Below, in pieces: positions 6,655-21,368 of a stretch of 64,000 bases of DNA. Numbering within the stretch: the stretch's first letter is position 1; each line of letters opens with the position of its first letter. A model generated the notes under the pieces. The model searched no databases and was not told the DNA's origin. It worked only from the letters and a program-made list of their open reading frames with translations. The translations under genes were made by a program, and so were the position numbers. Source of the DNA: a virus; IMG/VR virus record IMGVR_UViG_3300046171_000225, positions 64,001-128,000 of that record, one strand, 5' to 3'.

Positions 6655-6662
6655 ACTATTTA
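6655..6662 (+). promoter_or_regulatory. Putative phage late promoter ACTATTTA (probably leaderless transcript)
   Basis: Recurrent intergenic motif, 4 nt upstream of an ATG with no SD. Confidence 0.6.
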
Positions 6663-6666
6663 CTGT

Positions 6667-7917
6667 ATGCTAAACGGCATCAGTATACAATCACAGATAA
6701 GTCTTTTTATTTCTGCCCTCATTATGGCTCTCTTCTTTACGATGGAAGTGTTGGTTGTATTTGAGATCATCGCTGCAACTTATCACATCTCAGTGCTTGG
6801 TCTCTTTTGCCTTATGGCTTTTATGCCTCCGTGTGCTGTTGTTATTTCAGAGTTCCTTGAAAACATGCGACGAAAAGAGGAACTGGTCAACTCGCAGCTC
6901 GAAGGTATCAATAGTTCAAACTTAGTTGTGACCTTGACTATGGACGGCCATATACTAAAGGCCAACCCTAACTTTTGTGAACTTATGGGCTGTGACGAAG
7001 GCTATGTTATTATGCAGCCTCACAGAAAGATGGTCACTCCTGAATACTCTGAGAGTGACGAGTATGCTCACTTCTGGGCAAACTTACGAAAAGGCCGCAG
7101 CATCACAGGCAAGTTTGAAAGGGTTGCGAAGGATGGCTCGAAGCGATGGCTCTACGGCAACTATACTCCGATTAAGAATAAGTTTGGTACTTACGATAGG
7201 GTCTTGAAGATCGCAACTGACGTAACAACCGCACATTTAGTGGAGGAGATAGTTAGCCAAAAGACAGCGTATTTGGAACACGCTGCGAAGATCCTGCGTC
7301 ACGACATGCACTCTGGTATTAATACCTACCTTCCACGGGGCATCTCGTCTCTGAAACGCCGTCTGGACGACGAAACAATAAAAGAAAAGCGTCTTCAAAT
7401 GCCTATGAAACTTATTGAAGACGGACTTGTCCACACTCAGAAAGTTTATAAGGGCGTCTATGAGTTTACTAACTTGGTAAGGGAAGATACCACTCTTAGT
7501 AAAGAGGAACACAACATCAGAGAGATACTGGATGAGTATCTTCAATCTACTTCCTATGCAGACCAAGTTATCCTGTGCCCTGATCTTCCAACACTTCTTG
7601 TAAATGAAGCTCTGTTCTGTACTGCCGTAGATAATATGATTAGAAACGGCCTGAAATACAACGACTCTAAAACCAAGTATGTAAAAGTAATGATGGTTGA
7701 TGACGACACACTGGGCATCATAGACAACGGACGAGGGATGTCTCAGGAAGAATACCAGAGACTAAGCAAGCCTTACTTCCGGAGAGAGGGACAAAAAGAA
7801 GAAGGCACTGGCTTGGGTCTGAACATTACAGTTGCGATTTGTAAAGAACACGGCTTTGAACTCTCTGCTGAGAAGCGAGAAGAAGGCGGAACCATAATGA
7901 GGATAAAAGTAAAATGA
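6667..7917 (+). CDS. Membrane-anchored PAS-domain sensor histidine kinase
   Basis: 2 TM helices; PAS/PAC (ANPNFCELMG..KDGSKRW..YTPI..IATDVT); H-box LRHDM, N-box NMIRNGLKY, G1 DNGRGM, G2 GTGLGL. Confidence 0.92.
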   Translation: MLNGISIQSQISLFISALIMALFFTMEVLVVFEIIAATYHISVLGLFCLMAFMPPCAVVISEFLENMRRKEELVNSQLEGINSSNLVVTLTMDGHILKANPNFCELMGCDEGYVIMQPHRKMVTPEYSESDEYAHFWANLRKGRSITGKFERVAKDGSKRWLYGNYTPIKNKFGTYDRVLKIATDVTTAHLVEEIVSQKTAYLEHAAKILRHDMHSGINTYLPRGISSLKRRLDDETIKEKRLQMPMKLIEDGLVHTQKVYKGVYEFTNLVREDTTLSKEEHNIREILDEYLQSTSYADQVILCPDLPTLLVNEALFCTAVDNMIRNGLKYNDSKTKYVKVMMVDDDTLGIIDNGRGMSQEEYQRLSKPYFRREGQKEEGTGLGLNITVAICKEHGFELSAEKREEGGTIMRIKVK

Positions 7918-9539
7918 AACTCCTACTTGAAAGATGGCGTCAATATGTAAACGAAGAACTTTTGAACGAACTCTCTCTCGAAGATGTTGAGAAAAGATTT
8001 GATTCAAAGAAGTTTTCAAAGGCTGTTAAGCGTTACGAAGTTTCCCCTGACTATGCAAAAGAACAGCTACTTGCTCGTATACCTAAAGACATTACCGAAA
8101 AAGATAAGGCTGGGGCACTTAACTGGCTGATCAGCCTTTTTGTAAAAGATCCTAAACAAGTGTTTGTTGATCCGGAAGGAAGGCCCATATCTCGCTCAAA
8201 AGTAACTGGTGATCTTGAACTTTTCTTCCAAATTAAGAAGCAAAATCTAGCTAGATTTCTTGACAAAAGAAGTTTGTCTAGAATGGAGTCTGTTTCCGAG
8301 TTAGGTAAAGTCGTAGATGCTGCTAGAGAGCCTTATAAAAAGCATATGGAAAAAAAGGATTACTTAGACGCTGAACAAGGCAAACTAAAAATCTTTGAAA
8401 ATGACGAATATAAAGTTTTCATTCCAACCAATAAAGGGGCAGCTTGCGAACTAGGTAAAGGGACGGAATGGTGTACTGCTGCGCCGGGACTGCATTATTA
8501 TGAACATTATCACAAAGAAGACGATCCTTTAATTATTTTTAAAAGCAAGACTGATTCTAAAAAAGATGTACAAGTGCATTTTGGAAGTCATCAATTCATG
8601 GATGTAAACGATGAAGATATCGGACAAGAACGCGCTGTTCGTCTTGCTAGTTTGTTGAAGGGTAATAAATACTTACCAAAAAAGGTCTTAAATATCATAG
8701 ATGAGATAGAATATATCTCTCTGGGTGATGGTAAGGAAATAATTGTTGATTTTACGGGCCATAAGCTCTGGTATCTAAACGGCAAATTTCACCGTGAAGA
8801 CGGTCCTGCTCTTGAGTCGCCTGAAGGTTATAAAGAATGGTACCTAAACGGCAAACAACACCGTGTGGGGGGTCCTGCCGTTGAAGACCCCGATGGCGCT
8901 GAAGCATGGTATCTAAACGGCAAACTCCACCGTGAAGATGGTCCTGCCAAAACAACCCGAGTCGGCATACAGGAATGGTGGCTGAGGGGCCAACGCCACC
9001 GTGTAGACGGCCCTGCTATTGTCGTACCAGGGGTTTCAGAAGCGTGGTACCTAAACGGCCTTCTTCATCGTGAAGACGGCCCTGCTCTGTCCAATGCCAC
9101 AGAAAAAAAGTGGTACTTAAAAAACTTTCTTCACCGTGTAGACGGCCCTGCCATTGAGAGAGCCGATGGCAGAAAGGAATGGCACCTGAGGGGCAAACTT
9201 TACCATAGGGAGCAGGCTGACGGCACAAAGAAGTGGTATCAGGACAGAGCTCTTCATCGCGAAGACGGCCCCGCTATTATATATCCAGATGGCTCAAAGG
9301 AATGGCATTTAAACGGCCAACAACACCGTGAAGATGGTCCTGCCATTGAGATGGCCAACGGCACAAAGATCTGGTACCTAAACGGCCTTCTTCATCGTGA
9401 AGACGGCCCTGCCATTGAGAGGCCCGACGGCGTCGGACCTATGGCAGACGGCTCAAAGGAATGGTTCCTAGATGGCAAACGCTATACCAAAGAACAGTAC
9501 GAAGAAGAAATGAAATCTAGAAAAGGAGAAGAAGGATGA
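7914..9539 (+). CDS. Repeat protein: N-terminal LLERW signal, PcfJ-like 'WCT' domain, ~10 WYLNGxxHREDGPA repeats
   Basis: GKGTEWCTAA motif; tandem 22-23-aa repeats. Confidence 0.8.
   Translation: MKLLLERWRQYVNEELLNELSLEDVEKRFDSKKFSKAVKRYEVSPDYAKEQLLARIPKDITEKDKAGALNWLISLFVKDPKQVFVDPEGRPISRSKVTGDLELFFQIKKQNLARFLDKRSLSRMESVSELGKVVDAAREPYKKHMEKKDYLDAEQGKLKIFENDEYKVFIPTNKGAACELGKGTEWCTAAPGLHYYEHYHKEDDPLIIFKSKTDSKKDVQVHFGSHQFMDVNDEDIGQERAVRLASLLKGNKYLPKKVLNIIDEIEYISLGDGKEIIVDFTGHKLWYLNGKFHREDGPALESPEGYKEWYLNGKQHRVGGPAVEDPDGAEAWYLNGKLHREDGPAKTTRVGIQEWWLRGQRHRVDGPAIVVPGVSEAWYLNGLLHREDGPALSNATEKKWYLKNFLHRVDGPAIERADGRKEWHLRGKLYHREQADGTKKWYQDRALHREDGPAIIYPDGSKEWHLNGQQHREDGPAIEMANGTKIWYLNGLLHREDGPAIERPDGVGPMADGSKEWFLDGKRYTKEQYEEEMKSRKGEEG
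8768..9480 (+). repeat. Intragenic tandem repeats encoding WYLNGxxHREDGPA units
   Basis: 41-nt exact copy at 9045-9085 and 9372-9412; about 9 full and 2 partial units. Confidence 0.9.
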
Positions 9540-9967
9540 TAAACTCTATTTTATTAGTTGATGATGAAAACCTATTTCATCTTGTATTTGAGGACGCTTG
9601 TTCTCTGTTAGACATTACCCTGAACTTGGAAAGCATTTCTTCTTCTGACGAGGCAGCAAGGTTATTCAAGGAATGGCAAACCCAGCCAGACAAAAAGCCT
9701 GAATGTGTTTTTGTTGATCTCAACATTGTTGGTTCTTCCTTTGACGGTATTGAACTAACCAGAAAGATCAACTTTGAATACGGCAACGGTGTTGTTATTG
9801 GTATTATTTCTTCGTCTGCGGACGATACTGAAATCGCCAAAGCAGTCCAAGCAGGGGCACAGTTCTGGATTGTAAAGTCAGATGACATTGAGCCAAGGCT
9901 TGAAGCATTCCACAAGGATTACCCTGCTTACAAAGACAGAACAGCACAGTTCAAGGTTTATAGATAA
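9536..9967 (+). CDS. Single-domain response regulator (receiver)
   Basis: LLVDDE, FVDLNI (phospho-Asp), DGIEL, ISSS, IVK. Confidence 0.9.
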   Translation: MINSILLVDDENLFHLVFEDACSLLDITLNLESISSSDEAARLFKEWQTQPDKKPECVFVDLNIVGSSFDGIELTRKINFEYGNGVVIGIISSSADDTEIAKAVQAGAQFWIVKSDDIEPRLEAFHKDYPAYKDRTAQFKVYR

Positions 9968-9969
9968 CA

Positions 9970-10536
9970 ATGATTGTAATGACTGAAAGGGTCAAGGATG
10001 ACCTTATAAAGCTTGCGAAAGAAAGAAACATTTACCTTGAAGGCAACATTCTCAAAGTCATAGATACTGACGGCGATGCCGAGTTTGAGGCTTATGTCCA
10101 AGACGCCCTTCAGCAAGACAAGGTTACCCGTCGCAAGCGTCTGGAGATGACCAAACAAGTCCAACAGCAGAATAAAGAGTTGCTGGAGACACAAGAAGAA
10201 AAAGATGTTCTTATGGAAGAACTTCGCGAAGCCCTTCAGCAAGCAGAGGACGCCAAGGTAGAAGCTGAGAATGACCTTGATGTTCTTCAAAAGAAAACAC
10301 AGTTTGAACTTATCGGTCAGATCGTAACGGTTGCCCTTTGGATCATTATGGGCGTCGGCCTTACAACAACCGGTCTTTTCGTAGTGTCTATGTATACTGG
10401 TGTCGATACAACACTTATTGGAAATACTTGGTCAAATCTATTTGGAATCTTGCTAACAAACTCATTTAGTATTATAGGTACTATCATGGGTGTCAAATAT
10501 TCGTCTGAGAGTTCGCCTAGAAGTAGCAAAGAGTAA
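9970..10536 (+). CDS. Coiled-coil protein with two C-terminal TM helices
   Basis: Q/E-rich heptads followed by two hydrophobic segments; adjacent to the receiver gene. Confidence 0.75.
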   Translation: MIVMTERVKDDLIKLAKERNIYLEGNILKVIDTDGDAEFEAYVQDALQQDKVTRRKRLEMTKQVQQQNKELLETQEEKDVLMEELREALQQAEDAKVEAENDLDVLQKKTQFELIGQIVTVALWIIMGVGLTTTGLFVVSMYTGVDTTLIGNTWSNLFGILLTNSFSIIGTIMGVKYSSESSPRSSKE

Positions 10537-19173: not shown

Positions 19174-19812
19174 ATGTCTGAAGAAGTTGATCTGCCACAG
19201 GAGGTTACGGAATCCTTGGTTTTGGCAGATCCTGGTGCTTTGAATACTATAGGCCTTATTGGCGATGTTACCGAAGAGACGTCGAACGAGCTTATCTTTT
19301 CTCTACTCATGATGAAAGAGAAACAAGAGTTGGACTACTACACCGCCCTTGCAGTTTCGCAAGCGGAAGAAGATGTTGAAGAGCCAGAGAAGCCAGATAT
19401 TAATTTTTATATTTCTACAAACGGTGGCTCGGCAGACGAGATGTTTGCTATCTATGATGTCATGCGTCTTATCAAAAGTAGAGACGTGACCTCGGTTTGT
19501 ACTTATGGACTTGGAAAAGTTATGTCTGCAGGGGTTTTACTTCTTGCAGCAGGGACCAAGGGAAAGAGAAGAGTTGGCAAACATTGCAGAGTCATGATAC
19601 ATTCTGTTATCGGAGGGTCCACAGGGCCTATGCATCAGCTAGAGAATGAGTTTTCAGAGGTCAAGAAGATCCAGGATAACTACATAAGTGCTCTAGTTTC
19701 CGAGACTAATATGACAGAAGAATATCTAAGAGACCTATTGAAGAAGAAGATAAATGTTTACCTGTCTGCTGAAGAAGCAGTCGAACTTGGAATCGCAGAC
19801 GAAGTGTGCTAG
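19174..19812 (+). CDS. clpP: ClpP-like protease subunit
   Basis: ISTNGGS, MFAIYDVM, GKVMSAG (Ser), MIHS (His), YLSAEEAVELGIAD. Confidence 0.85.
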   Translation: MSEEVDLPQEVTESLVLADPGALNTIGLIGDVTEETSNELIFSLLMMKEKQELDYYTALAVSQAEEDVEEPEKPDINFYISTNGGSADEMFAIYDVMRLIKSRDVTSVCTYGLGKVMSAGVLLLAAGTKGKRRVGKHCRVMIHSVIGGSTGPMHQLENEFSEVKKIQDNYISALVSETNMTEEYLRDLLKKKINVYLSAEEAVELGIADEVC

Positions 19813-19820
19813 GAGGTACA

Positions 19821-21368
19821 GTGTCTAAGAAATATTGCTCTAATCAAGAACTAGAAAGTAGAATCGCCAGCGGGATCAATAAGTTGGCAGATAATGTGGC
19901 CTCTACCCTTGGCCCAAGAGGAAGGAACGTTATCCTTCAGAAAAAGGATTCTAATCCAATCGTAACAAAAGACGGAGTCACAGTAGCCGAGTTTGTAGAG
20001 CTTGAAGATCCGTTTGAGAATCTAGGTGCTCAAGTCATCAAGCAGGCTTCGAGAGTTACTAACGCAGAAGCTGGCGATGGCACTACTACAGCCACGGTCT
20101 TGGCTAGGGCGATGTACCGGAACGCCAGAAAGTATATTTCTTCTGGTCATGCTCCTATTCAGATCAAGCGCGAGATGGATAAGACTGTTTCTGAAGTTGT
20201 AGAGAGTCTTTCGGAGCTTGCAAGTCCTATTTCTTCTATTGAAGACATCCGTCATATTGCTACTATCTCAGCCAACAATGATCCTGAGATAGGTGAACTA
20301 ATTGCAAAAGCAGTTGAAAGTGTTGGCAAGGATGGCTCTATCACTGTCGAAGAAGCACGCTCTCTTCAGACTAGCCTAGACTTGGTAGAGGGCTTTAGGC
20401 TTGGCTCTGGCTATGCTTCTAGTTCCTTTATCACTGATGAGCGTCGTGGGGCTGTCGTATACGAAGATGTATTTGTTTTAGTTGCTGATGCTAAGATTGA
20501 TAAGGTAGACGACATTCTACCTGTCTTGGAAGTTATAGCGAGGGAGGGACGACCTTTGGTGATCGTCGCTTCAGATATTGAAGGGCAGGCACTAGCTGCT
20601 TTGATTATGAATAGTATGCGTGGAACAATGAAGGTAGCTGCTGTTAAGGCTCCCGGCTATGGCGAAGAGAGAAGAGGTATCTTGAACGACCTTTGTTTGA
20701 CCACTGGTGCTACTTATGTCACTAGATCTAGTGGCCTCAAGCTAAAAGAGGTAACTCTAGAGCATCTAGGTATGGCTAAGAAAATTGATATAACAAAGGC
20801 AGTTACTACAATTGTGGGAGGCAAAGGAGACTACGCCGAGGTCGATAGAAAAATCGAAGCCCTCAAGATCGAAGCTGCACAGACCGATTCGATGAATGAA
20901 GCTGAAAGAATTCAGCAGAGAATCACTAGACTTGCTGCTGGTATTGCTATCATCCGAGTAGGCGCTGCCACTGAAGTCGAGATGATAGAAAAGAAACATC
21001 GTATTGAAGATGCCTTAGAAGCAGTCAAGGCTGCTAGAGATGAAGGCATTGTTCCCGGTGGCGGTGTTGCTCTTGTCCGTACCGTCCCTAAGGGCAAACT
21101 CACTGGTGCTCAGGCTGTTGTTTACGATGCTATATGCGAGCCGATTAGGCAGATGGCCTTCAATGCTGGTGAAAGCCCAGACGTAGTCCTAGACAGAGTC
21201 AAGAAACTTAAAGGCTCTAAAGGGTGGGACTTTAACGATAGTAAGGTTGTAGATATGCTTGAACAAGGCGTTATTGATCCTGTGAAGGTTACTAGAACAG
21301 CATTGCAGAATGCTTGCTCAGCAGTTGGGGCTCTCATAACTAGTGGCTATGCCATTGTGGAGGACTGA
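19821..21368 (+). CDS. groEL: Chaperonin GroEL (no GGM tail)
   Basis: TLGPRGRNV, TKDGVTVA, GDGTTT, KAPGYG, GIVPGGG, IDPVKV; AGGAGG before GTG 19821. Confidence 0.96.
   Translation: MSKKYCSNQELESRIASGINKLADNVASTLGPRGRNVILQKKDSNPIVTKDGVTVAEFVELEDPFENLGAQVIKQASRVTNAEAGDGTTTATVLARAMYRNARKYISSGHAPIQIKREMDKTVSEVVESLSELASPISSIEDIRHIATISANNDPEIGELIAKAVESVGKDGSITVEEARSLQTSLDLVEGFRLGSGYASSSFITDERRGAVVYEDVFVLVADAKIDKVDDILPVLEVIAREGRPLVIVASDIEGQALAALIMNSMRGTMKVAAVKAPGYGEERRGILNDLCLTTGATYVTRSSGLKLKEVTLEHLGMAKKIDITKAVTTIVGGKGDYAEVDRKIEALKIEAAQTDSMNEAERIQQRITRLAAGIAIIRVGAATEVEMIEKKHRIEDALEAVKAARDEGIVPGGGVALVRTVPKGKLTGAQAVVYDAICEPIRQMAFNAGESPDVVLDRVKKLKGSKGWDFNDSKVVDMLEQGVIDPVKVTRTALQNACSAVGALITSGYAIVED

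What the first reader, a model, noticed from the sequence alone, without database searches (positions are those of the whole stretch)
6667..10536. Phage-encoded two-component signalling module (PAS histidine kinase + receiver + coiled-coil membrane protein)
Seen: an intact membrane HK (H, N, G1, G2 boxes; chemoreceptor-type PAS), a stand-alone receiver with all catalytic residues but no DNA-binding output, and a coiled-coil/2-TM protein. The genes overlap or nearly abut, behind the late-type motif. Known: complete two-component systems are rare in phages. Inference: a phage sensory circuit (redox/energy via PAS) whose output is protein-protein at the membrane, possibly affecting lysis timing, exclusion or host motility.
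Basis: partly seen in the sequence, partly recalled or inferred. Interest (0 to 1): 0.8.

Follow-up and report, generated by a model that had tools for sequence, protein, structure and literature searches.

The report
Phage sensor relay to membrane hairpin
An uncultured 163-kb T4-like phage carries its own intact sensor kinase, phospho-receiver and a virus-only membrane "hairpin" protein; hundreds of related phages keep the same trio, and many place the hairpin among their cell-bursting genes. The phage therefore probably adjusts membrane permeabilisation or lysis to the host's internal state, but nothing has been tested at the bench.

Summary
The span holds four coupled genes, not three. They are a 2-TM/PAS histidine kinase (6667-7917), an inserted 541-aa repeat gene (7914-9539), a stand-alone receiver (9536-9967) and a coiled-coil/TM-hairpin protein (9970-10536).

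- **Origin.** The contig is a real phage, with T4-type capsid, portal and terminase.
- **Synteny.** Kinase, receiver and hairpin are co-conserved in 80/80 IMG/VR loci examined (354 hits). The repeat gene is absent from all of them.
- **Kinase and receiver.** Catalytic residues are invariant, natural kinase-receiver fusions exist, and 26 relatives carry two kinases with an identical docking helix. The receiver (76-81% identity) is more conserved than capsid (about 50-64%) or terminase (30-60%), while its synonymous sites are saturated.
- **Hairpin as output.** The hairpin family is virus-only. In 253 other viral contigs the same hairpin is fused directly to PAS-PAS, with no kinase or receiver nearby. 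69 of 80 of those sampled have an endolysin within three genes, and the endolysins are of four unrelated types. So the hairpin is the output, probably a holin- or antiholin-like lysis regulator.
- **Caveat.** This phage and its closest relatives have no lysis gene beside the module.

This scan reached the same reading earlier on other genomes. I found no published description.

The parts
6656..6662 (+). Promoter-like motif CTATTTA (within AAACTATTTAC), 4 nt upstream of the kinase ATG
   Evidence: The motif occurs 35 times on the + strand and 7 on the - strand of the genome. ACTATTTA is 8.3-fold enriched in intergenic DNA and precedes many genes, including structural ones. Relatives carry TATTTAT 6-8 nt before the kinase ATG, often after a GGGGTTTTTTT terminator. 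Timing class was not tested.
6667..7917 (+). Sensor histidine kinase, 416 aa: 2 TM helices (aa ~13-64), PAS (aa 83-190), divergent DHp with H-box (aa 205-221, phospho-His most likely H212, codon 7300-7302), HATPase_c (aa 317-415)
   Evidence: Pfam finds PAS_3 (4e-11) and HATPase_c (1e-14). The H, N, G1 and G2 boxes are invariant. H205 is Y in some paralogs while H212-D213 never varies. The closest solved PAS domains are MmoS 3ewk and Aer 8dik.
7914..9539 (+). Inserted gene, 541 aa: conserved N-domain (aa 1-275) plus about 11 'WYLNGxxHREDGPA' repeats. It is not part of the conserved module.
   Evidence: It is absent between kinase and receiver in 80/80 related loci. The N-domain family has 178+ clusters with varying C-terminal repeats and no named function. 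The only Pfam hit is a sub-threshold DUF6745, and there is no PDB relative. ATGA overlaps at both ends.
9536..9967 (+). Stand-alone receiver (response regulator without output domain), 143 aa; phospho-acceptor D61 (codon 9716-9718)
   Evidence: Pfam Response_reg at 39.7 bits. 71 invariant columns, including D9, D10, D61, S92-94, K114, the whole of helix 1 and a conserved C-terminal tail. 354 IMG/VR relatives at 75-84% identity. Synonymous differences pS 0.67-0.97 against dN 0.10-0.22.
9970..10536 (+). Coiled-coil / TM-hairpin protein, 188 aa: N-domain (aa 1-36), coiled coil (aa 37-~113), TM hairpin (aa ~114-178) with invariant polar motif W154-S-N..G..LLTN.FS..GT..G.KY177, and a hydrophilic tail
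   Evidence: AlphaFold2 model and hydropathy; alignment A2. The family is virus-only: at least 8000 metagenome clusters but only 4 mis-binned MAG contigs among 185,579 species genomes, and 264 representatives in 1.84 billion. The hairpin is 36% identical overall to the C-terminus of the PAS-PAS fusion P0177, and much closer over the hairpin itself.

Best explanation
This is a phage-encoded phosphorelay whose output is a phage-specific membrane hairpin protein.

1. The kinase is anchored in the inner membrane. It reads a cytoplasmic signal through an MmoS/Aer-type PAS domain, probably a flavin that reports redox or energy state (inferred).
2. It autophosphorylates on H212 and passes the phosphate to D61 of the stand-alone receiver. 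This is inferred from intact invariant residues, natural kinase-receiver fusions and an invariant docking helix.
3. The phosphorylated receiver acts by contact on the N-domain or coiled coil of the translationally coupled hairpin protein. This changes how the TM hairpin packs or oligomerises. It is inferred from relatives in which PAS or GAF sensors replace the N-domain, and in which the N-domain plus coiled coil instead drives a kinase core.
4. The hairpin acts in the membrane as a holin-like or antiholin-like regulator. The phage can thereby advance or delay membrane permeabilisation and lysis according to host state. This is inferred from its position in the lysis cassettes of relatives.

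The 541-aa repeat gene is a later insertion that kept translational coupling and is not part of the mechanism.
For: Module integrity:
- Kinase, receiver and hairpin are present and in order in 80/80 loci. Receiver and hairpin overlap by 4 or 1 nt or sit within 5 nt in 76 of them.
- The catalytic residues are invariant.
- Fused kinase-receiver proteins P0121-P0123 exist, one of them on 5 contigs.
- 26 loci carry two kinase paralogs with different sensors but the same H-box RHDMHSGINTY(M/I/L)PR, matching an invariant receiver helix 1.
- The receiver is under extreme purifying selection. It is 76-81% identical where capsid is about 50-64% and terminase 30-60%, with synonymous sites saturated.

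Hairpin as the output:
- PAS-PAS+CC+hairpin (P0177, in 253 viral contigs) and GAF+CC+hairpin (P0145) lack any kinase core or receiver within 6 kb.
- The N-domain plus coiled coil is also found driving HisKA+HATPase_c, as in P0252, P0254 and others.

Link to lysis:
- In the one-component set an endolysin lies within 3 genes in 69/80 loci, and 23-143 nt downstream in 15. The endolysins are of four non-orthologous types.
- In the two-component set 47/80 loci have an endolysin within 8 kb, in several different arrangements.
Against: - In this phage no endolysin, holin-like neighbour or lysis cassette lies near the module. The flanks are a small-gene array, glutaredoxin and DNA polymerase III alpha. 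The only PG-binding domain found is about 55 kb away, at genome 129430-131373.
- The closest relatives (L002-L010, L015, L018, L020) also lack a nearby lysin.
- Lysis cassettes of relatives hold other small TM proteins (d2, d4, d6, c20) that could be the true holins. The hairpin may therefore be only a regulator, or something else that merely travels with lysis genes.
- No holin model matches the hairpin, and Foldseek finds nothing.
- Receiver-hairpin contact, phosphotransfer, the PAS cofactor and any membrane activity are all untested.
- The loci are phylogenetically related, so the counts are not independent events.
Confidence: 0.55

Rival explanations
1. The receiver's real target is a conserved host machine, such as host signalling, proteolysis adaptors, motility or cell division. 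The hairpin protein would then be only an accessory or scaffold of the kinase (LiaF-like), not the output.
For: The receiver is more conserved than capsid and terminase across phages that are only 30-60% identical in terminase. That would fit a constraint from an invariant host partner. Some kinases are short 2-TM proteins without PAS, resembling intramembrane-sensing kinases that rely on accessory membrane proteins.
Against: The one-component relatives drop kinase and receiver entirely but keep the hairpin, so the hairpin is the constant downstream element. The receiver's conservation is also explained by its having to fit up to two kinases plus the hairpin protein. No host target is indicated by any data here.
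Confidence: 0.2
2. The hairpin is a regulated membrane effector for something other than lysis. Examples are superinfection exclusion, control of proton-motive force or ion flux during infection, or counter-defence. Its frequent place near lysis genes would reflect shared membrane-gene neighbourhoods.
For: In this window and its nearest relatives the module sits among replication and nucleotide-metabolism genes, not lysis genes. The polar invariant TM motif (S, N, T, G) would suit a channel or a docking surface of any kind.
Against: The association with endolysins persists across four non-orthologous lysin types and many arrangements. This is hard to explain without a lysis-related role.
Confidence: 0.2
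3. The genes are adjacent by chance, or are a recently captured and decaying cellular operon with no role in the phage.
For: None beyond the general rarity of two-component systems in cultured phage genomes. Only partial PAS or ATPase matches were found, in 10 of 50,697 records.
Against: There is 80/80 synteny, with invariant catalytic residues and strong purifying selection. The hairpin family is absent from cellular genomes. No receiver in 300 Bacteroidota genomes comes near the phage receiver profile.
Confidence: 0.03

Closest known systems
Phage T4 lysis inhibition: holin T with antiholins RI/RIII (PMC11413866); lysis inhibition in Vibrio phage ICP1 (PMC7182436)
   Same: A T4-type phage adjusts lysis time in response to a sensed signal, through protein-protein control of a membrane lysis protein.
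   Different: T4 senses superinfection in the periplasm through a small antiholin that binds the holin directly, with no kinase, receiver or PAS domain. Here the proposed signal is cytoplasmic and passes through a phosphorelay. There is no sequence relation. The Phage_holin_T model found nothing, but its control search was also silent.
LytSR two-component system controlling lrgAB/cidAB holin-like genes in Staphylococcus (own knowledge, not checked here)
   Same: A two-component system is coupled to holin- or antiholin-like membrane proteins and to the cell's energetic state.
   Different: LytR is a DNA-binding regulator acting on transcription in a bacterium. The phage receiver has no output domain, and the link is inferred to be post-translational.
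Single-domain receivers acting by contact (CheY-FliM, DivK, CpdR; own knowledge)
   Same: A stand-alone receiver of about 120-140 aa with all phospho-chemistry residues and no output domain, whose signal passes by protein binding.
   Different: It is not an ortholog. The best NCBIfam matches are far below cut-off (CheY_Halo 23 bits against 200). No comparable receiver was found in 300 Bacteroidota genomes. The partner is a virus-only membrane protein.
Flavin-binding PAS redox sensors MmoS (3ewk), Aer (8dik) and NifL
   Same: The kinase PAS is closest to these by sequence: E 4e-11 to MmoS and 6e-7 to Aer PAS.
   Different: Identity is low, the flavin-contact residues were not checked, and the cofactor is unknown.
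Class II (two-TM, N-in/C-in) holins and pinholins
   Same: A TM hairpin with small and polar residues, a hydrophilic C-terminal tail and, in relatives, a position directly upstream of the endolysin.
   Different: It has a cytoplasmic N-domain and coiled coil of about 110 aa (or PAS/GAF in relatives). No holin family model matches it, it is not next to a lysin in this phage, and hole formation is untested.

Membership tests
Two-component system (histidine kinase + receiver) | Kinase has a conserved phospho-accepting His in a DHp H-box | tested here: met
   H212-D213 in RHDMHSGINTY is invariant in 56 orthologs and in all second paralogs. H205 varies (Y), so it is excluded.
Two-component system (histidine kinase + receiver) | DHp domain matches the Pfam HisKA family model | tested here: not met
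   No HisKA hit at E<=0.01, so the DHp is divergent. NCBIfam kinase models align only over the ATPase part and far below their cut-offs.
Two-component system (histidine kinase + receiver) | HATPase_c catalytic domain with N, G1 and G2 boxes | tested here: met
   HATPase_c at 55 bits. N323/N327, D353-x-G-x-G357 and G382-x-G384 are invariant.
Two-component system (histidine kinase + receiver) | Receiver with acidic pocket, phospho-Asp, Ser/Thr and Lys | tested here: met
   Response_reg at 39.7 bits against a cut-off of 30.2. D9, D10, D61, S92-94 and K114 are invariant.
Two-component system (histidine kinase + receiver) | Kinase and receiver genetically linked as a cognate pair | tested here: met
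   80/80 loci. Natural fusions P0121-P0123. There is a single kinase and a single receiver in this genome.
Two-component system (histidine kinase + receiver) | Phosphotransfer from His to Asp | not testable with these tools
   Needs purified proteins.
CheY (chemotaxis) orthologs | Scores as CheY with curated models | tested here: not met
   NCBIfam CheY_Halo scores 23.4 bits against a cut-off of 200. The protein is a stand-alone receiver but not a CheY ortholog.
Holins (two-TM class) | TM hairpin with hydrophilic C-terminal tail | tested here: met
   Two hydrophobic helices at aa ~114-143 and 147-178, followed by the tail SSESSPRSSKE. The N-in/C-in topology is inferred.
Holins (two-TM class) | Gene lies in a lysis cassette next to the endolysin | tested here: not met
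   Not met in this window or genome. Met in relatives: 69/80 one-component loci and 47/80 two-component loci.
Holins (two-TM class) | Matches a described holin family model | tested here: not met
   No Pfam, PHROG or NCBIfam holin hit. The nearest ESM Atlas clusters are unnamed viral ones.
Holins (two-TM class) | Forms lethal membrane lesions that release or activate endolysin | not testable with these tools
   Needs expression and lysis assays.
T4 lysis-inhibition system (T, RI, RIII) | Homolog of holin T present | tested here: inconclusive
   PF11031 found nothing in the genome, but the control genomes were also silent.
LytSR-type control of holin-like genes | Receiver carries a LytTR DNA-binding output domain | tested here: not met
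   The receiver is 143 aa with only the Response_reg domain.

The most novel reading that the evidence does not exclude
Phages of an abundant aquatic clade gate host lysis by phosphorylation. A flavin-type PAS kinase reads host redox or energy state. Through a dedicated receiver it switches a new family of sensor-coupled holin/antiholin hairpins. One-component (PAS- or GAF-fused) and two-component versions of the same switch are spread over hundreds of phage lineages. This would be the first lysis clock set by an intracellular signalling pathway encoded by the virus itself.
Probability: 0.4. Interest if true: 0.85.

Novelty: new variant of a known kind. Interest (0 to 1): 0.75.

Why it matters
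Lysis timing is the main life-history trait of a lytic phage. The only well-understood case of signal-dependent timing is T-even lysis inhibition. A virus-encoded phosphorelay feeding a membrane lysis regulator would show that phages measure host physiology from inside the cell before deciding when to burst it.

The family is very large: at least 8000 protein clusters and hundreds of IMG/VR contigs up to 430 kb, from aquatic metagenomes. Any effect on burst timing would therefore matter for virus-driven turnover in those waters.

The modular architecture, {N-domain | PAS | GAF} - coiled coil - {TM hairpin | kinase core}, also gives a compact natural system for studying how a signalling helix controls a membrane hairpin. 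The extreme conservation of the receiver is itself an open question.

Tried and rejected
- **Cellular or chimeric contig.** Rejected: terminase, portal and gp23-type capsid lie on the same 163-kb record.
- **T4 late promoter TATAAATA as the 'late motif'.** Rejected: only 2 copies on the + strand against 11 on the - strand. The enriched motif is (A)CTATTTA.
- **Cultured relatives carrying the module.** None found. Receiver and hairpin have no tblastn match in 50,697 GenBank phage records. The kinase gives only partial PAS or ATPase matches.
- **Kinase as a direct viral-contig query.** The peptide-pattern search found nothing because the kinase is too divergent. Synteny was recovered through the receiver instead.
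- **Cellular homologs of the hairpin.** Only 4 MAG contigs from four different phyla, which are mis-binned phage DNA.
- **Fold and embedding searches for the hairpin protein.** Foldseek against the PDB gave no match at E<=0.001, and the ESM Atlas returned only unnamed viral clusters.
- **Receiver-hairpin fusions.** Not seen among the 5 longer-form relatives of the receiver, which were kinase-receiver fusions or partial matches, nor among the hairpin-family representatives checked with Pfam. This is weak negative evidence.
- **Lysin or holin near the module in this genome.** GH19, Phage_lysozyme, Amidase_2 and all neighbour families from relatives were absent. PG_binding_1 occurs only at genome 129430-131373.
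- **'PcfJ-like' label for the inserted gene (a first-stage note).** No Pfam support at E<=0.01.
- **N-domain+kinase variants (P0252/P0254) in IMG/VR.** Not found, so their genomic context is unknown.
- **Literature.** Five searches gave no description of a PAS-fused holin or of a phage two-component system in lysis cassettes.


Full report
**What is in the span**

Window 6667-10536 holds four co-oriented, translationally coupled genes.

| Gene | Coordinates | Size |
|---|---|---|
| Histidine kinase | 6667-7917 | 416 aa |
| Repeat protein | 7914-9539 | 541 aa |
| Receiver | 9536-9967 | 143 aa |
| Coiled-coil/TM protein | 9970-10536 | 188 aa |

The stop and start codons overlap as ATGA at 7914-7917 and at 9536-9539. 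Two bases separate the last pair of genes.

- **Kinase.** Pfam finds PAS_3/PAS_9 (aa 83-190) and HATPase_c (aa 317-415) but no HisKA. Two hydrophobic helices precede the PAS domain.
- **Receiver.** Pfam finds Response_reg (39.7 bits, cut-off 30.2) and nothing else.
- **Last protein.** It matches no family in Pfam, PHROGs or NCBIfam.

**The contig is a phage**

The window is bases 64001-128000 of a 163,026-bp IMG/VR record estimated 90% complete. Upstream lie a large terminase, a portal and a gp23-type major capsid protein. The capsid's best cultured relatives are Microcystis phage Mel-JY01 (36%), Flavobacterium phage immuto (46% over 70% of the length) and Rhodothermus phage RM378. That makes this a distant T4-like myovirus.

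Around the module lie ThyX, a row of small genes, glutaredoxin and a DnaE-type polymerase. The genome has exactly one kinase and one receiver.

**Co-conservation**

The receiver has 354 relatives in IMG/VR at 75-84% identity. I examined 80 of those loci.
- The kinase lies upstream and the hairpin protein downstream in every locus that reaches far enough.
- Receiver and hairpin genes overlap by 4 or 1 nt, or sit within 5 nt, in 76 loci.
- The 541-aa repeat gene is absent from all 80, so it is an insertion in this lineage.
- The kinase-receiver junction is an insertion hot spot. Other loci hold 0.7-2.7 kb there.

The flanking genes differ widely between loci while the trio stays together.

**Catalytic integrity and pairing**

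Across 56 distinct kinases the following are invariant:
- the H-box RHDMHSGINTY;
- the N box;
- G1 (D-x-G-x-G);
- G2 (G-x-G).

H205 is Y in some paralogs, which leaves H212 as the likely phospho-acceptor.

Across 56 receivers, 71 of 143 columns are invariant. These include D9, D10, D61, S92-94, K114, all of helix 1 and a C-terminal tail.

Sensor parts of the kinases vary: PAS in 47 of 56, GAF in 9, a 7TM module in 1, and about a dozen kinases are soluble. Twenty-six loci carry a second kinase paralog, some with a signal peptide and an outside domain. Both paralogs have the same H-box and docking helix. Several sensors therefore appear to converge on one receiver.

Natural kinase-receiver fusions exist (P0121-P0123). 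One of them is seen on five contigs up to 190 kb.

**An unusually constrained receiver**

| Compared record (locus) | Receiver identity | Capsid identity | Terminase identity |
|---|---|---|---|
| G001 (L003) | 81% | 64% | 60% |
| G002 (L009) | 80% | 49% | 45% |
| G003 (L015) | 78% | 52% | 47% |
| G005 (L064) | 76% | about 50% | about 31% |

Synonymous sites between these receivers are saturated (pS 0.67-0.97), while dN is 0.10-0.22. The conservation is therefore old purifying selection, not recent transfer.

No receiver in 300 sampled Bacteroidota genomes reaches E<=1e-8 against the phage receiver profile. The best solved relative is a Cytophaga stand-alone regulator, 3ilh, at E 7e-6.

**The hairpin protein is virus-only and modular**

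The AlphaFold2 model (pLDDT 81.6) has three parts:
- a small N-domain, aa 1-36;
- one helix, aa 37-143, which runs from the coiled coil into the first TM segment;
- a second TM helix, aa 147-178.

The second TM helix carries an invariant polar motif, W-S-N..G..L-L-T-N.F-S..G-T..G.K-Y.

The family fills at least 8000 clusters in metagenomes. Among 185,579 species genomes it appears only on four MAG contigs from four different phyla, which are mis-binned phage DNA.

A profile search of 1.84 billion representatives found a closed family of 264 hits. Among them are domain-swapped forms:
- PAS-PAS + coiled coil + the same hairpin (P0177, P0179);
- GAF + coiled coil + hairpin (P0145);
- the N-domain + coiled coil fused to HisKA + HATPase_c (P0252, P0254, P0267, P0270, P0271). 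The P0254 cluster lies on contigs up to 100 kb.

The architecture is therefore {N-domain | PAS | GAF} - coiled coil - {hairpin | kinase core}. The hairpin behaves as an output, and the N-domain as an input equivalent to a sensor domain.

**A one-component sister system**

The PAS-PAS-hairpin gene occurs in 253 IMG/VR contigs. In 80 sampled loci there is no receiver and no kinase core within 6 kb. The PAS domains are 38-45% identical to the PAS of the window's kinase. The window's hairpin aligns to the P0177 C-terminus at E 1e-28.

This is the classic relation between a one-component and a two-component version of the same pathway. It places the hairpin downstream of the receiver.

**Link to lysis**

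In the one-component set:
- An endolysin lies within three genes of the hairpin gene in 69 of 80 loci.
- The GH19 endolysin lies 23-143 nt downstream in 15 loci.
- The endolysins are of four non-orthologous types: GH19 with a PG-binding domain (phrog_181), lysozyme (phrog_7), a PG-binding protein with phrog_3000, and an M15 peptidase (phrog_894).
- Small two-TM proteins and a lipoprotein-like gene complete typical lysis cassettes.

In the two-component set, 47 of 80 loci have such a lysin within 8 kb. It sits either just downstream of the hairpin gene or just upstream of the kinase.

Persistence of the neighbourhood across different lysin types and arrangements argues for a functional tie to lysis. 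The loci are related, however, so these counts are not independent events.

**What does not fit for this phage**

The window's phage and its nearest relatives (L002-L010, L015, L018, L020) have no lysin or holin-like neighbour near the module. I found no GH19, T4-lysozyme or Amidase_2 gene anywhere in the genome. The only PG-binding domain is in a 647-aa ORF about 55 kb downstream, outside the window.

No holin model matches the hairpin, and Foldseek finds nothing. The small TM proteins in relatives' cassettes may be the true holins. If so, the hairpin would be a regulator (antiholin-like) rather than the hole-former.

**Sensor**

The PAS domain is closest to the flavin-binding PAS of MmoS (3ewk, E 4e-11) and of Aer (8dik, E 6e-7). 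A redox or energy signal is plausible, but the cofactor is untested.

**Promoter-like motif**

The T4 late consensus TATAAATA is not enriched. The motif (A)CTATTTA is strand-biased (35 against 7) and 8-fold enriched between genes. It precedes many genes, including ones in the structural block, and lies at 6656-6662. Relatives have TATTTAT 6-8 nt before the kinase ATG, often after a terminator.

The kinase therefore seems to head a transcription unit with a very short leader. 'Late' timing is not shown.

**The inserted gene**

Its N-domain (aa 1-275) belongs to an uncharacterised family of 178+ clusters, with variable C-terminal repeat arrays, on contigs up to 395 kb. It has no PDB relative and only a sub-threshold DUF6745 hit. 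It kept ATGA coupling on both sides. I treat it as a passenger.

**Most likely mechanism, with shown and inferred steps marked**

Shown:
- domain content;
- invariant catalytic residues;
- synteny;
- natural fusions;
- domain swaps;
- lysis-cassette neighbourhoods in relatives;
- purifying selection on the receiver.

Inferred:
- a flavin-type signal;
- phosphotransfer from His212 to Asp61;
- contact of the phosphorylated receiver with the N-domain or coiled coil;
- a change in hairpin packing;
- altered membrane permeabilisation and lysis timing.

I put about 0.85 on a functional phage relay with the hairpin as its partner. I put about 0.55 on lysis control as the output.

**Prior knowledge**

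Five literature searches found no description of this module or of sensor-fused holin-like proteins.

The closest known behaviour is T4 lysis inhibition (PMC11413866) and ICP1 lysis inhibition (PMC7182436, listed). Both work without any phosphorelay.

After I had reached this reading, the scan's own notes showed that other agents had come to the same conclusion on other genomes. One note reports a clade in which the receiver is fused to a membrane tail. I did not test that.

Noticed in passing
window 7914-9539: A 541-aa gene is inserted between kinase and receiver. It has a conserved N-domain (family of 178+ clusters) and about 11 'WYLNGxxHREDGPA' repeats. Relatives of the N-domain carry other repeat types at the C-terminus (DUF6745-like, LRV). 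Function is unknown.
   Followed up: partly
L011:5327-7269, L017, L034, L042, L047 and others: In many relatives a 200-aa secreted protein (YPIQTI..GDSVVIL) and a second histidine kinase sit between the first kinase and the receiver. The second kinase has a Bacteroidota-style signal peptide and an outside domain. This suggests an extra, extracytoplasmic input to the same receiver.
   Followed up: partly
L011:7273-7995, L035:3144-3866, L067:3324-4046, L078:3518-4240: A 240-aa ORF beginning AYVYRHIRKD..FYIGIGS (GIY-YIG-like, judged by eye) is inserted just upstream of the receiver in some loci. It is probably a homing endonuclease using the kinase-receiver junction.
   Followed up: no
L002:8429-8992, L009:8429-9196, L010:8429-9975: The rare inserts between the receiver and hairpin genes all start MKI(T/S)xxQL(K/R)..I. 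This resembles the MKLLLERWRQY start of the window's inserted gene and may be a shared N-terminal signal on cassette genes.
   Followed up: no
whole genome; e.g. window 6656, 18353, 24348, 35419, 52976: The strand-specific motif (A)CTATTTA(T) lies 5-40 nt upstream of many gene starts (35 on +, 7 on -). It is a candidate phage promoter and differs from the T4 late TATAAATA.
   Followed up: partly
window 9536-9967 compared with genome 38548-40377 and 29084-30664: The receiver is more conserved across the clade (76-81%) than the major capsid protein (about 50-64%) or the large terminase (30-60%). No explanation has been tested.
   Followed up: partly
window 9970-10110 compared with P0177 aa 219-235: BLASTP aligns the hairpin protein's N-domain stretch IYLEGNILKVIDTDGD with the last PAS strands IYLQATYNPVFDSKGN of the one-component protein. 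The N-domain might be a PAS remnant, or the match may be chance.
   Followed up: no
P0196 (1.5-kb ENA contig): The hairpin protein's N-domain and coiled coil are fused to a FecCD permease domain in a single short contig. This is probably an assembly chimera.
   Followed up: no
window 19806-21368: The phage encodes a full-length GroEL-type chaperonin (phrog_5725, E 2e-142).
   Followed up: no
genome 129430-131373 (window coordinates 65430-67373, just outside the window): A 647-aa ORF with a PG_binding_1 domain, preceded by the ACTATTTAT motif, is the only candidate wall-binding or lytic protein found in this genome.
   Followed up: no
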